64,000 nucleotides of DNA from the NCBI GenBank assembly GCA_000004985.1, contig GG738922.1; one strand, given 5' to 3'. Within the stretch, counting starts at the first letter, position 1. Every line of letters begins with the position of its first letter. The stretch is from Naegleria gruberi. Its lineage: Eukaryota. The notes under the pieces were generated by a model. That model did no database searches and was not told the origin of the DNA. It saw only the letters and a list, made by a program, of their open reading frames with translations. Shown here piece by piece: positions 24,488 through 25,954 of the stretch. A program made the translations under genes and the position numbers.

Positions 24488-25954
24488 TTATTCATCATAG
24501 TCTTCATCTTCTTCATCTTCATCGTTGGAGTAAACTTCATCTTCGTCATCTTCATCAAAGGTTGGAATCTGCTCGGGAGTTGTGTTATTTTGTAAAGATT
24601 TCAAACCCTCCAAATCATGCAAGTAAATGGAAAGCAGTTCATCATTAGCCTCAATACATGAGTTGTGGTTTGGATTACTCGAGTTGATTGTTTTCACAGA
24701 AGGCATTGTAAAGCATTGAGATTGTGAAAATGGACAAATGTACTTCTTGTCAATGAATTCTTCATACTTGTTTTCCTTATTCTTGACAGCTCTAGATTCG
24801 TCATCATCTTCATCGTTTCTGTTAGAGTTCATTAGGGGTGAGCGAATTTGTACTGTTCCAGCTTCCTTCTTCTTGTTAAATAAGGTGTATTCATTGTAAG
24901 GACCTGGAGCATTTAGGAAAATGATAGTGTCTCTTTTTGAAAGAGAATCAGACCACATGGTCAAGTACTTTCTTGTCTTGAGTTTAAAGTGTTCTTCTTG
25001 CATTCTACGAATTTGACTACCAACGGACTTGGCTCTCTTACTTTGATCTTTGGAAACTTGTCTTTTTCCTTGCTTTTTTCTAGTGACATACTTGTGGAAA
25101 GTTTTGTGTACAGTGGCGACCATTGGCTCTGCATTCTTTTGCTTTCTTCCATTTTTCTGGAACACACAACCACTGAAAGAACCACCATGACAGAAAATAA
25201 CACAAAATCCCTTCTCCAAAAAGTGATTCTTCAAATCTCTCAAAAAGAATTGGAAATCGTGATGATAATTCAAAGACATGATCATCTTGATACGATCTGT
25301 TGAATTTTCAAACACTTCTCTCAGCTCAGTGTCCATTCTCTGGTTGATTGAATGATTTTTACAATCTTCATAAATATACTTGAAAATTTCATAATAAATC
25401 TTGAAACATGAAATAAATAGTGGAATTTGTGTATCAACTTGCAAAACAATTTTTGTCTGATTTACGCCTGAAATTGAATGAAACTTGCAAGGAATCTTCA
25501 AAAGTAATGATGATGTTGAACAGAGTGGATTCTTACCATAGAAGGAATTTTCAACACCTTCCTTCATCAATTCATATAATTGATGATGAGCAGATACTAA
25601 TTCATACCATTGCTTGTTCACCAGAATTAATGAAAGTAATTCTTCAGATATTTTCTTTTCGGAAGCCTTTTTCTTCTTCTTTTTCTTTTTTACTTCCACT
25701 TCATTATCATCATAAATTGAAAAATCCATCAAATATAATAATATATGATTAATCACTCTCCGATTATGAGACAAAATTAAACCCTTTTCTTTACGTTCTT
25801 CCATAAACATGAATGTTTTTTGTGAGGGAGATTGATCAAAATCCTCATCATCATCGTCCTTGTATTTGATCCTCTCTCGCATCAGAGTAAATTGTTTACG
25901 GTCATAGGTTTTATTCACTCGATCGACAAAATTTGATAAATGTTCAAAACTCAT
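24488..25954 (-). CDS. VLRF1 (Vms1/ANKZF1-type eRF1-like peptidyl-tRNA hydrolase) domain protein with F-box-like N-terminus
   Basis: True ATG is at 25952-25954 (MSFEHL..); the track start at 25999 is TTG. N-terminus VINHILLYLMDF..[K-rich insert]..LLSLILVNKQWYELV is F-box-like. The central block FCVIFCHGGSFSGCVFQKNG..VATVHKTFHKYVTRKKQGKRQVSKDQSKRAKSVGSQIRRMQEE matches the VLRF1 core (GGHFAGAVF..HKTFHRYTVRxKxGGxQ..SAGxxLRRxNE). Acidic DE-rich C-terminus. Assignment is from remembered motifs. Confidence 0.55.
   Translation of the reverse strand: MSFEHLSNFVDRVNKTYDRKQFTLMRERIKYKDDDDEDFDQSPSQKTFMFMEERKEKGLILSHNRRVINHILLYLMDFSIYDDNEVEVKKKKKKKKASEKKISEELLSLILVNKQWYELVSAHHQLYELMKEGVENSFYGKNPLCSTSSLLLKIPCKFHSISGVNQTKIVLQVDTQIPLFISCFKIYYEIFKYIYEDCKNHSINQRMDTELREVFENSTDRIKMIMSLNYHHDFQFFLRDLKNHFLEKGFCVIFCHGGSFSGCVFQKNGRKQKNAEPMVATVHKTFHKYVTRKKQGKRQVSKDQSKRAKSVGSQIRRMQEEHFKLKTRKYLTMWSDSLSKRDTIIFLNAPGPYNEYTLFNKKKEAGTVQIRSPLMNSNRNDEDDDESRAVKNKENKYEEFIDKKYICPFSQSQCFTMPSVKTINSSNPNHNSCIEANDELLSIYLHDLEGLKSLQNNTTPEQIPTFDEDDEDEVYSNDEDEEDEDYDE

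What the first reader, a model, noticed from the sequence alone, without database searches (positions are those of the whole stretch)
24488..25954. VLRF1 (Vms1/ANKZF1-type release-factor) domain on an F-box-like scaffold without zinc finger, ankyrin or VIM modules
The core motifs of the VLRF1 peptidyl-tRNA hydrolase/nuclease domain appear (CHGGSFSGCVFQ, HKTFHKYVTRKKQGKRQ, SVGSQIRRMQEE). The flanks are an F-box-like N-terminus split by a poly-K insertion and an acidic DE tail. Canonical Vms1/ANKZF1 carries a C2H2 finger, ankyrin repeats and a p97-interacting motif, all absent here. This suggests a divergent ribosome-quality-control release factor, possibly recruited through an SCF-type adaptor rather than Cdc48/p97.
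Basis: partly seen in the sequence, partly recalled or inferred. Interest (0 to 1): 0.6.

Follow-up and report, generated by a model that had tools for sequence, protein, structure and literature searches.

The report
Naegleria Vms1-type release factor with F-box
This is an intact gene from a Naegleria amoeba for the enzyme that frees unfinished proteins from stalled ribosomes, with an F-box-like module in place of the usual accessory domains; a 2019 comparative-genomics paper already reported this layout for Naegleria.

Summary

The residues required in yeast Vms1 (Y285, R288, G292, Q295) are all present as Y289, R292, G296 and Q299. The catalytic Gln therefore lies in G296-K-R-Q299, not in the 'SVGSQ' motif.

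No zinc finger, ankyrin, VTC or VIM module is detectable.

The N-terminal F-box reading fails Pfam's threshold but holds up in other tests:
- A profile-profile comparison with F-boxes from solved SCF structures gives 95% probability (E 4e-8; 400 shuffles score no higher than 17 against 38).
- Two relatives carry above-threshold Pfam F-boxes at the aligned position.

Orthologues occur in N. lovaniensis, N. fowleri, Willaertia and Acrasis, so the window comes from a Naegleria species.

Burroughs & Aravind 2019 (PMC6514570) already report an F-box fused to the VLRF-1 core in Naegleria, so the architecture is known. Skp1/SCF binding remains untested. One detail departs from the published 'GxuQ' rule: the residue before the catalytic Gln is Arg.

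The parts
24488..25954 (-). Complete single-exon CDS, 488 aa plus stop. It is the heterolobosean Vms1/ANKZF1-type (eVLRF-1) protein.
   Evidence: ORF list and translation. It is colinear with single-exon orthologues such as N. lovaniensis L002 8001-9509. It is 99% identical to metagenome protein P0001, with 4 synonymous and 0 non-synonymous codon differences.
25859..25954 (-). N-terminal conserved helix (residues 1-32, 'MSFEHLSNFVDRVNK...'). Role unknown.
   Evidence: The 'MFE(N/H)L..(F/L)V(D/E)' start is shared by all heterolobosean homologues. AF2 predicts helix 3-32 at pLDDT 47-75.
25706..25777 (-). F-box-like motif, helix 1 part (residues 60-83, 'ILSHNRRVINHILLYLMDFSIYD').
   Evidence: hhalign of the N-terminal profile against 8 F-boxes of solved SCF structures: 95%, E 4e-8, 34 columns. 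It aligns in register with the Pfam-validated F-boxes of P0230 and P0246.
25652..25705 (-). Lys-rich insertion (residues 84-101, NEVEVKKKKKKKKASEKK) in the loop between F-box helices 1 and 2.
   Evidence: It is present in the Naegleria sequences only. It is absent in Willaertia, Acrasis and P0008/P0009, and P0006 has a longer insertion at the same point. AF2 pLDDT is below 50.
25556..25651 (-). F-box-like motif, helices 2-3 (residues 102-133, 'ISEELLSLILVNKQWYELVSAHH...'), including the family-typical 'LVxKxW'.
   Evidence: Pfam F-box-like residues 104-127, E 0.2, sub-threshold. W116 is invariant. Further support comes from hhalign and from the PDB profile hits to FBXO42, Skp2, FBXW12/19/21 and Dia2.
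25205..25537 (-). Region between the F-box and the Pfam core (residues 140-250): a short beta unit plus helices. It is probably the N-terminal extension of the VLRF1 module with lineage-specific helices.
   Evidence: It is conserved among heteroloboseans. AF2 strands 141-184 and helices 186-248 have pLDDT 56-86. Foldseek aligned 308 columns with yeast Vms1 6r87_R. PMC6514570 describes an N-terminal extension shared by bVLRF-1 and eVLRF-1.
24866..25204 (-). VLRF1 core (residues 251-363), an eRF1-like catalytic domain.
25058..25108 (-). Catalytic segment HKTFHKYVTRKKQGKRQ (residues 283-299). Y289, R292, G296 and Q299 correspond to yeast Y285, R288, G292 and Q295. The GxxQ loop G296-K-R-Q299 lies at 25058-25069.
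   Evidence: Pairwise alignment to yeast Vms1. These positions are invariant in a 62-sequence alignment. The yeast mutational data are in PMC5989216.
24737..24874 (-). Insertion specific to Naegleria and Willaertia, inside the VLRF1 domain (residues 361-406; charged, partly conserved 'KENKYEEFIDKKY').
   Evidence: It is absent from the short heterolobosean forms and from canonical Vms1. The Pfam match stops at model position 105 of 145 at this point. pLDDT 50-63.
24617..24736 (-). C-terminal part of the VLRF1 domain (residues 407-446), with invariant P408, P418 and P428.
   Evidence: Invariant columns across heterolobosean and fungal sequences. pLDDT 82-92, with strand/helix elements packed against the core.
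24491..24559 (-). Acidic C-terminal tail (residues 466-488) containing the Naegleria-conserved motif [DE]V[YFL]SND[DE].
   Evidence: Translation and alignment of the Naegleria orthologues. It is absent in Willaertia and in the short forms.

Best explanation
The gene encodes the heterolobosean version of the eukaryotic Vms1/ANKZF1 release factor (eVLRF-1 family).

Shown by homology: it has a complete eRF1-like VLRF1 domain in which every residue required in yeast Vms1 is in place (Y289, R292, G296, Q299, with the two-residue G-to-Q spacing kept).

Inferred from the family: it binds the A-site side of a 60S subunit that still carries peptidyl-tRNA. It inserts the GxxQ loop towards the peptidyl-transferase centre. 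It then detaches the nascent chain, either by ester hydrolysis or by cutting off the tRNA 3'-CCA, as reported for Vms1/ANKZF1.

Shown: the Rei1-type zinc finger, ankyrin repeats, VTC domain and Cdc48-binding VIM of fungal, animal and plant Vms1 are absent. In their place, the N-terminus carries a divergent F-box homologue whose helix1-helix2 loop holds an 18-residue Lys-rich insertion.

Inferred, not tested: the F-box docks the protein on Skp1. This would link nascent-chain release to an SCF-type or Skp1-only complex, or put the factor's own abundance under SCF control, in place of the Cdc48 link. Ribosome binding would rest on the VLRF1 module itself plus basic segments, as in the stand-alone bacterial bVLRF-1 proteins.
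For: VLRF1 identity:
- Pfam 96 bits against a cutoff of 27.
- Only Vms1 chains are found in PDB by sequence.

Catalytic residues: Y289, R292, Q295, G296, Q299, S310, G312 and R316 are invariant across 62 family members. They map onto yeast Y285, R288, G292 and Q295. In yeast, mutation of R288, G292 or Q295 abolishes function, mutation of Y285 gives a partial defect, and the G-to-Q spacing matters (PMC5989216).

A conserved, functional gene:
- Full-length orthologues at 46-59% identity occur in N. lovaniensis, N. fowleri and Willaertia. Shorter forms occur in Acrasis and in environmental sequences.
- The TCP-1, Vps8 and NARG2_C genes lie near the gene in both the window and N. lovaniensis.
- Comparison with a 99% identical copy shows 4 synonymous and 0 non-synonymous changes.

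F-box:
- hhalign gives 95%, E 4e-8 against verified SCF F-boxes. 400 column shuffles score at most 17.4 against 38.1.
- 7 of 9 weak PDB profile hits are F-box proteins, aligned on their F-box.
- Relatives P0230 and P0246 have Pfam F-box hits above threshold (34.1 and 31.3 bits) in the homologous N-terminal position.
- The literature states that Naegleria eVLRF-1 has an F-box (PMC6514570).
- The same window encodes a canonical F-box/LRR protein.

Absence of a VIM does not argue against release activity. Yeast Vms1 residues 1-417, which lack the VIM, still release peptidyl-tRNA in vitro.
Against: - The F-box is below Pfam's gathering score in this protein (11.9 against 24.3 bits).
- It lacks the usual Leu-Pro at the start of helix 1 ('ILS' instead).
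- It is interrupted by a disordered Lys-rich loop.
- AF2 did not fold it into a compact three-helix unit (pLDDT 41-69), and a fold search with that model found nothing.
- The hhalign query had the insertion removed by hand.
- The loop is G-K-R-Q, not the 'GxuQ' with a tiny residue that PMC6514570 calls nearly universal. In yeast the G292A/G293A double mutant is dead, and yeast G293 corresponds to K297 here.
- No activity, ribosome binding or Skp1 binding has been measured for any member of this subgroup.
- In yeast the zinc finger and ankyrin domain contact the 60S (summary in PMC7026593). How this protein holds the ribosome is therefore unknown.
Confidence: 0.7

Rival explanations
1. The VLRF1 enzyme is as described, but the N-terminal segment is only a decayed F-box or a generic helical extension that no longer binds Skp1. 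It would serve instead as an intramolecular regulator (like the N-terminal leucine-rich sequence of yeast Vms1) or as a ribosome-contact element, with the Lys-rich loop touching rRNA.
For: - Pfam F-box-like is sub-threshold.
- Only 4 of 11 homologues give any F-box signal, best E 0.018.
- The LP dipeptide is missing and the H1-H2 loop carries an insertion.
- AF2 predicts long single helices with low confidence.
- Among 62 related G-x-[RK]-Q proteins with long N-termini, only one gave a Pfam F-box signal at E<0.01, so the N-terminal extensions of this group are diverse.
- PMC6514570 notes a plain alpha-helical N-terminal domain in kinetoplastids.
Against: - The profile-profile match covers helices 1-3 in register and lies far outside the shuffle distribution.
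- The conserved 'LVxKxW' and hydrophobic helix-1 pattern are kept across heteroloboseans as distant as about 27-30% identity overall, which argues for constraint.
- Relatives retain fully canonical F-boxes at the same position.
- Functional F-boxes without LP exist: the TIR1, COI1 and FBXL3 sequences used.
Confidence: 0.22
2. This is a lineage-specific paralogue with a different job, such as organelle-associated or stress-specific release. A canonical Vms1 elsewhere in the Naegleria genome would do the standard RQC work.
For: - The G-x-R-Q loop and 'YV.RKKQG' signature mark a sequence subgroup distinct from canonical 'YTTRRKQGG[AS]Q' proteins.
- I could not search a whole Naegleria genome.
Against: - In two searches, each named Naegleria species and Willaertia contributed exactly one VLRF1 protein, and it was always this type.
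[quoted passage not shown] It gives the F-box form as the Naegleria state.
- One search listed only the best 120 of 1342 hits, so this test is weak.
Confidence: 0.06
3. The domain is a catalytically altered or inactive VLRF1 because the loop carries Lys-Arg instead of Gly plus a tiny residue. It would act as a binder or competitor on 60S subunits rather than as a release enzyme.
For: R298 replaces the 'tiny' residue and K297 replaces yeast G293. Loop geometry is sensitive in yeast, as shown by the deltaS294 and G292A/G293A mutants.
Against: - G296, Q299, R292 and Y289 are strictly conserved.
- The G-x-[RK]-Q form is common in this profile-biased sample: 93 of the 219 fetched sequences whose loop matched the search pattern (264 fetched in all). 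That fits a working variant better than decay.
- G-to-Q spacing is preserved.
Confidence: 0.04

Closest known systems
F-box-VLRF-1 architecture of Naegleria and some ciliates (eVLRF-1 family; Burroughs & Aravind 2019, Int J Mol Sci 20:1981, PMC6514570)
   Same: The organism group and domain order are the same: an F-box N-terminal to the VLRF-1 core, with no Rei1-ZnF, ANK, VTC or VIM.
   Different: Nothing essential differs; this is that protein family. Details I did not find in the text passages retrieved from the paper by keyword: the Naegleria-specific Lys-rich insertion inside the F-box, the insertion within the VLRF1 domain, the acidic tail motif, and Arg before the catalytic Gln. The last of these departs from the paper's 'GxuQ' generalisation.
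Yeast Vms1 / human ANKZF1 (canonical RQC peptidyl-tRNA release factor / tRNA CCA-end nuclease; PDB 5WHG, 6R84-6R87)
   Same: VLRF1 fold and catalytic segment are shared: HKTFH.Y..R.KQG..Q, with the Y, R, G and Q positions identical.
   Different: There is no N-terminal C2H2 zinc finger, no ankyrin repeats, no coiled coil and no VIM. The loop is GKRQ rather than GGSQ. An F-box-like N-terminus is present, and the VLRF1 domain is split by a 46-residue insertion.
Bacterial bVLRF-1 (Bacteroidetes/Heimdallarchaeota stand-alone VLRF1; Pfam PF18826)
   Same: This is the Pfam model that best matches the protein. Like bVLRF-1, the catalytic module is not flanked by ZnF, ANK or VIM.
   Different: The protein is eukaryotic, more than twice as long, and has an F-box-like N-terminal extension and an acidic tail. 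The bacterial proteins are described as stand-alone.
F-box proteins of SCF ligases (Skp2, FBXW7, beta-TrCP, Cdc4, TIR1, FBXO2, COI1, FBXL3)
   Same: The pattern of about 40 residues over three helices is shared, including the hydrophobic helix 1 and 'V(C/N)KxW'.
   Different: There is no LP dipeptide. An 18-residue insertion sits in the H1-H2 loop. The C-terminal partner is an enzyme domain rather than a WD40, LRR or other substrate-binding domain. Skp1 binding is untested.

Membership tests
VLRF1 / eVLRF-1 (Vms1-like release factor domain, Pfam PF18826) | Profile match above the curated threshold | tested here: met
   96 bits, E 2.6e-27, against a cutoff of 27. All 11 homologues match, best 1.5e-60.
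VLRF1 / eVLRF-1 (Vms1-like release factor domain, Pfam PF18826) | GxxQ loop with invariant Gly and Gln, two residues apart | tested here: met
   G296 and Q299 align with yeast G292 and Q295. Both are invariant in 62 sequences.
VLRF1 / eVLRF-1 (Vms1-like release factor domain, Pfam PF18826) | Conserved Arg and Tyr upstream of the loop (yeast R288, Y285) | tested here: met
   R292 and Y289 are invariant. Their requirement in yeast is shown in PMC5989216.
VLRF1 / eVLRF-1 (Vms1-like release factor domain, Pfam PF18826) | Tiny residue immediately before the catalytic Gln ('GxuQ' of PMC6514570) | tested here: not met
   R298 occupies this position. Arg or Lys there is shared by all heterolobosean sequences and by many short non-canonical relatives. 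The paper calls the feature 'near absolutely conserved', not defining, so it does not exclude membership.
VLRF1 / eVLRF-1 (Vms1-like release factor domain, Pfam PF18826) | eRF1-central-domain-like fold | tested here: met
VLRF1 / eVLRF-1 (Vms1-like release factor domain, Pfam PF18826) | Release or cleavage of peptidyl-tRNA on 60S subunits | not testable with these tools
   This needs a biochemical assay.
Canonical Vms1/ANKZF1 architecture | N-terminal Rei1-like C2H2 zinc finger | tested here: not met
   No zinc-finger family hit at E<=10 and no C2H2 regex match. The fungal control P0010 does hit zf-C2H2_2.
Canonical Vms1/ANKZF1 architecture | Ankyrin repeats C-terminal to VLRF1 | tested here: not met
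   No Ank family hit at E<=10. In the family scan only the fungal member hits Ank.
Canonical Vms1/ANKZF1 architecture | VTC treble-clef domain (PF18716) | tested here: not met
   No hit. Precomputed Pfam annotation for the heterolobosean homologues lists only PF18826, whereas chytrid and other Vms1 proteins list PF18716.
Canonical Vms1/ANKZF1 architecture | VIM (Cdc48/p97-interacting helix, RX5AAX2R) | tested here: not met
   No match to a loose regex, and the C-terminus is an acidic tail. This is a weak test because no profile model was available.
F-box domain (Skp1-binding module of SCF adaptors) | Pfam F-box or F-box-like match above the gathering score | tested here: not met
   PF12937 gives 11.9 bits, E 0.2, against a cutoff of 24.3. 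The best among homologues is E 0.018.
F-box domain (Skp1-binding module of SCF adaptors) | Profile-level similarity to F-boxes of solved SCF complexes across helices 1-3 | tested here: met
   hhalign gives 95% probability, E 4e-8, score 38.1. 400 shuffles have mean 8.4 and maximum 17.4. 7 of 9 PDB profile hits are F-box proteins. Caveat: the Lys-rich insertion was removed by hand from the Naegleria rows.
F-box domain (Skp1-binding module of SCF adaptors) | Leu-Pro at the start of helix 1 | tested here: not met
   The sequence reads 'ILSHNRR'. Relatives P0230 and P0246 do have 'ALPE' and 'GLPP'.
F-box domain (Skp1-binding module of SCF adaptors) | Conserved Trp after helix 2 ('V[CN]KxW') | tested here: met
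   W116 is invariant in the heterolobosean set and aligns with the invariant Trp of the reference F-boxes.
F-box domain (Skp1-binding module of SCF adaptors) | Compact three-helix fold | tested here: inconclusive
   AF2 confidence is low in this region (pLDDT 41-69). Foldseek with the N-terminal model returned nothing meaningful.
F-box domain (Skp1-binding module of SCF adaptors) | Binding to Skp1 | not testable with these tools
   No complex prediction or experiment was available.

The most novel reading that the evidence does not exclude
The F-box-VLRF1 proteins with a basic residue before the catalytic Gln (G-x-[RK]-Q, 'YV.RKKQG') may form an old, protist-wide branch of ribosome-quality-control release factors. 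In this reading they are wired to Skp1/SCF instead of Cdc48. The release factor itself would act as the substrate receptor that brings stalled 60S-nascent-chain complexes to a cullin ligase, or would be licensed and destroyed by it. The altered loop could reflect a different balance between hydrolysis and tRNA CCA cleavage.
Probability: 0.15. Interest if true: 0.6.

Novelty: already known. Interest (0 to 1): 0.25.

Why it matters
The canonical picture of nascent-chain release in ribosome-associated quality control comes from yeast and mammals, where Vms1/ANKZF1 is tied to Cdc48/p97. The Naegleria form shows that the catalytic module can work with a different partner module. If the F-box really binds Skp1, it would link peptidyl-tRNA release directly to a cullin-type ubiquitin ligase.

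That idea was already raised implicitly by the 2019 domain-architecture survey. This window therefore adds a confirmed, well-delimited example rather than a new kind of system. It also adds two small details: the Arg in the catalytic loop, and the insertions in the F-box and the VLRF1 domain.

Tried and rejected
1. A domain-only homologue search returned only short fragments of 210 aa or less and none of the known heterolobosean proteins. It could not answer whether Naegleria has a second VLRF1 gene.

2. A trimmed multi-sequence query that included a canonical Vms1 gave 1342 hits, of which only 120 were listed. One protein per Naegleria species was seen, so the result on a canonical paralogue is inconclusive.

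3. The exhaustive representative search carries no taxon names and could not settle the paralogue question either. It did show that only four 50%-identity representatives, all heterolobosean, match full length.

4. An AF2 model of the N-terminus alone (pLDDT 61, pTM 0.28) and its Foldseek search were uninformative about the F-box fold.

5. The afdb50 fold library was not available.

6. A strict 'LPxE...' regex found no canonical F-box in 62 related proteins, and Pfam found one weak F-box among them. The convincing relatives (P0230, P0246) emerged only from an HMM built on solved F-boxes.

7. Verma et al. 2018 (PMC6226276) is not held. The mutational data were taken from PMC5989216 instead.

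8. I rejected the idea that 'SVGSQ' is the catalytic GSQ loop. It aligns with yeast 'SAGSA', and the Gln column is variable.

9. I rejected any operon-type reading of the neighbours. They are unrelated eukaryotic genes: NARG2_C, NUDIX, Vps8, TCP-1 and NmrA.
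Full report
**What is there.** Window 24488-25954 on the minus strand is a single uninterrupted ORF of 488 codons starting at the ATG at 25954. The longer TTG-initiated ORF in the mechanical list is an artefact of the bacterial start rule. The orthologues all begin at the same 'MF(E/Q/D)' position. The window is AT-rich (32-36% GC throughout) and is packed with long ORFs for typical eukaryotic proteins: TCP-1 chaperonin, Vps8, NARG2_C, NUDIX, NmrA, TPR, and F-box/LRR.

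**Source organism.** The closest database proteins are as follows:
- a 99% identical protein on a 2-kb metagenome contig;
- 57% identity to *Naegleria lovaniensis*;
- 55% to *N. fowleri*;
- 46% to *Willaertia magna*;
- shorter forms from *Acrasis kona* and unnamed JGI sequences.

The window therefore comes from a *Naegleria* species (Heterolobosea). The N. lovaniensis orthologue is also a single exon. It has TCP-1, Vps8 and NARG2_C genes within a few kb, as in the window, which supports orthology.

**Checking the observation.**
- All three quoted motifs are present at the stated place.
- Pfam PF18826 (bVLRF1) matches residues 251-363 with 96 bits (E 2.6e-27; cutoff 27).
- phmmer against all PDB sequences finds only yeast Vms1 chains (E about 3e-9).
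- An AlphaFold2 model built on a 62-sequence alignment is confident over the domain (pLDDT 80-94 for residues 250-360 and 410-450).
- That model hits yeast Vms1 first by Foldseek (6r87_R, E 1.3e-4, probability 1.0).

The VLRF1 assignment is secure.

**Catalytic residues.** The pairwise alignment to yeast Vms1 puts HKTFHKYVTRKKQGKRQ opposite yeast HKTFHRYTTRRKQGGSQ. Window Y289, R292, G296 and Q299 therefore correspond to yeast Y285, R288, G292 and Q295.

In yeast, R288A, G292A and Q295L abolish or strongly impair release. Deleting S294, which changes the G-to-Q spacing, also kills function, and Y285A is partially defective (PMC5989216). All four positions are invariant in the 62-sequence alignment, and the spacing is kept.

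One correction is needed: the catalytic Gln is in G296-K-R-Q299. It is not in 'SVGSQ', which aligns with yeast 'SAGSA' and whose Gln column is variable.

[quoted passage not shown] Here that residue is Arg298, and the preceding one is Lys.
- All nine heterolobosean sequences have Arg at this position.
- Among the 264 VLRF1 proteins fetched up to that point, 219 had a loop matching the search pattern. The position before Gln was R in 74 and K in 19, against S in 60 and A in 48.
- The basic form goes with 'YV.RKKQG' and with short, non-canonical lengths. The tiny-residue form goes with 'YTTRRKQGG' and 590-790-aa proteins.
- That sample is biased towards the query profile, so these are not family-wide frequencies.

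The strict conservation of G, Q, R and Y argues for a working variant rather than decay.

**What is missing.** At E<=10 the protein hits no zinc-finger, ankyrin or VTC (PF18716) model. The fungal Vms1 included as a control does hit zf-C2H2_2 and Ank. A regex finds neither a C2H2 pattern nor an RX5AAX2R VIM-like helix, and the C-terminus is an acidic tail. The VIM test is weak because it rests on a regex only.

**The F-box question.** Pfam F-box-like matches residues 104-127 at only 11.9 bits (E 0.2; cutoff 24.3). Only 4 of 11 homologues give any signal (best E 0.018). On that evidence alone the claim would fail, so I ran three further tests.

1. *Profile against PDB sequences.* I built a profile of the N-terminal segment from nine heterolobosean sequences, with the Naegleria Lys-rich insertion removed by hand, and searched it against PDB sequences. 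It gave nine hits at E<10. Seven are F-box proteins aligned on their F-box: FBXO42, two Skp2 fragments, FBXW12, FBXW19, FBXW21 and Dia2. None is individually significant (E 0.1-2).

I verified them against their PDB chains (78-101 bits each), aligned them, and ran hhalign against the heterolobosean profile.
   - The result was 95% probability, E 4e-8, score 38.1, over 34 columns spanning helices 1-3 in register.
   - Two hundred column shuffles of either profile gave a mean of 8.4, SD about 2 and a maximum of 17.4.

It picked out N-terminal segments of several short VLRF1 proteins.
   - Two of them pass Pfam's own thresholds: P0230 (F-box-like, 34.1 bits) and P0246 (F-box, 31.3 bits).
   - Both align in register with the window's helix-1 and 'LVNKQW' segments, and both also have a GGRQ loop.

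Together with the published statement (below), I consider homology to the F-box well supported. Structure prediction did not help. The region has pLDDT 41-69 in both models, and Foldseek with the N-terminal model found nothing.

The 18-residue Lys-rich insertion (residues 84-101) lies in the helix1-helix2 loop. It is confined to the Naegleria sequences. Willaertia, Acrasis and P0008/P0009 lack it, and P0006 has a longer insertion at the same point. The usual Leu-Pro is replaced by 'ILS'.

**Other anatomy.**
- Residues 1-32 form a conserved N-terminal helix.
- Residues 140-250 are a conserved beta unit plus helices. This probably includes the N-terminal extension that bVLRF-1 and eVLRF-1 share.
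- The VLRF1 domain is split by a 46-residue charged insertion (361-406) found only in Naegleria and Willaertia. Its C-terminal part (407-446, with invariant P408, P418 and P428) is modelled with pLDDT 82-92.
- The acidic tail carries a motif conserved among Naegleria species, [DE]V[YFL]SND[DE].

[quoted passage not shown] This is the only paper in the held library that contains both 'VLRF' and 'F-box', and I found no experimental follow-up. The finding is therefore a correct rediscovery of a published architecture. It is 'divergent' only relative to yeast and human; under that paper's scenario it represents an early alternative elaboration of the core.

**How it most likely works.**
- *Shown by homology:* the protein has an intact VLRF1 active-site segment and fold.
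- *Inferred from the family* (PMC5989216; PMC7026593): the domain occupies the A-site side of a 60S-peptidyl-tRNA complex. It projects the GxxQ loop to the peptidyl-transferase centre and detaches the nascent chain by hydrolysis or by removing the tRNA 3'-CCA.
- *Lack of a VIM:* this is not an obstacle, because yeast Vms1(1-417) without the VIM releases chains in vitro.
- *Inferred and untested:* the F-box docks on Skp1. This would couple release to an SCF or Skp1 complex, or place the factor under SCF-dependent turnover.
- *Ribosome binding:* without the zinc finger and ankyrin contacts seen in yeast, binding must rely on the VLRF1 module and basic segments.

**Rivals.**
- The N-terminus is a decayed F-box that acts as a regulatory or ribosome-contact helix.
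- This is a paralogue with another role, and a canonical Vms1 lies elsewhere in the genome.
- The enzyme is loop-altered and inactive.

The paralogue question could not be settled. Each named Naegleria species contributed exactly one VLRF1 protein in two searches, but one search showed only 120 of 1342 hits, and no Naegleria genome could be scanned.

**Verdict.** The residual interest lies in the untested Skp1/SCF link and in the basic residue before the catalytic Gln. I score interest at 0.25.

Noticed in passing
window 25058-25069 (minus strand; residues 296-299): The catalytic loop reads G-K-R-Q. Arg precedes the catalytic Gln, where PMC6514570 describes a near-universal tiny residue ('GxuQ'). 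A basic residue there is shared by all heterolobosean homologues and by many short non-canonical VLRF1 proteins, including two with canonical F-boxes.
   Followed up: partly
window 25680-25691 (minus strand), inside the Lys-rich insertion: The K8 run is encoded by mixed AAA/AAG codons and includes a stretch with 11 A in 12 bases (AAAAAAGAAAAA). From memory, such A-rich lysine tracts can slow ribosomes in other eukaryotes, which would be a curious feature in a gene for a stalled-ribosome factor. I did not test whether this is conserved or meaningful in this AT-rich genome.
   Followed up: no
window 24515-24538 (minus strand; residues 473-480): A short motif, [DE]V[YFL]SND[DE], is conserved in the acidic C-terminal tail of the four Naegleria orthologues. 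It is absent in Willaertia and in the short forms. The Ser has acidic residues at +2 and +3, so it could be a phospho-regulated or partner-binding motif.
   Followed up: no
window 54527-56272 (minus strand): This ORF is a canonical F-box/LRR protein. Pfam F-box-like matches residues 2-42 at E 4.1e-8, with many LRR hits. Its F-box aligns weakly in register with helices 2-3 of the VLRF1 protein's N-terminal profile.
   Followed up: partly
window 27589-28944 (plus strand), with small Gly-rich ORFs at 26411-27474: A 451-aa ORF is made of about four to five tandem copies of a roughly 88-residue Lys/Gly/Asn-rich unit ('...GLGKLD..GK.KD....VN...GGKSK.LNK......') with a Pro/Glu-rich tail, and it has no Pfam family above threshold. 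Just upstream, ORF 26411-26932 encodes a 173-aa protein with a hydrophobic N-terminus, an Arg-rich amphipathic stretch and a Gly-rich hydrophobic C-terminus.
   Followed up: no
window 2458-3993, 10287-17624 and 20355-23525, compared with L002 (N. lovaniensis): The TCP-1 chaperonin, Vps8 and NARG2_C genes lie around the VLRF1 gene in both the window and N. lovaniensis, but with different order, spacing and intervening genes. This is local synteny with rearrangement.
   Followed up: partly
database searches: No protein named as Naegleria gruberi appeared among the hits, although N. lovaniensis, N. fowleri and Willaertia did. The only near-identical sequence is on a 2-kb metagenome contig (ERZ929261). 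The exact species of the window therefore stays undetermined.
   Followed up: no
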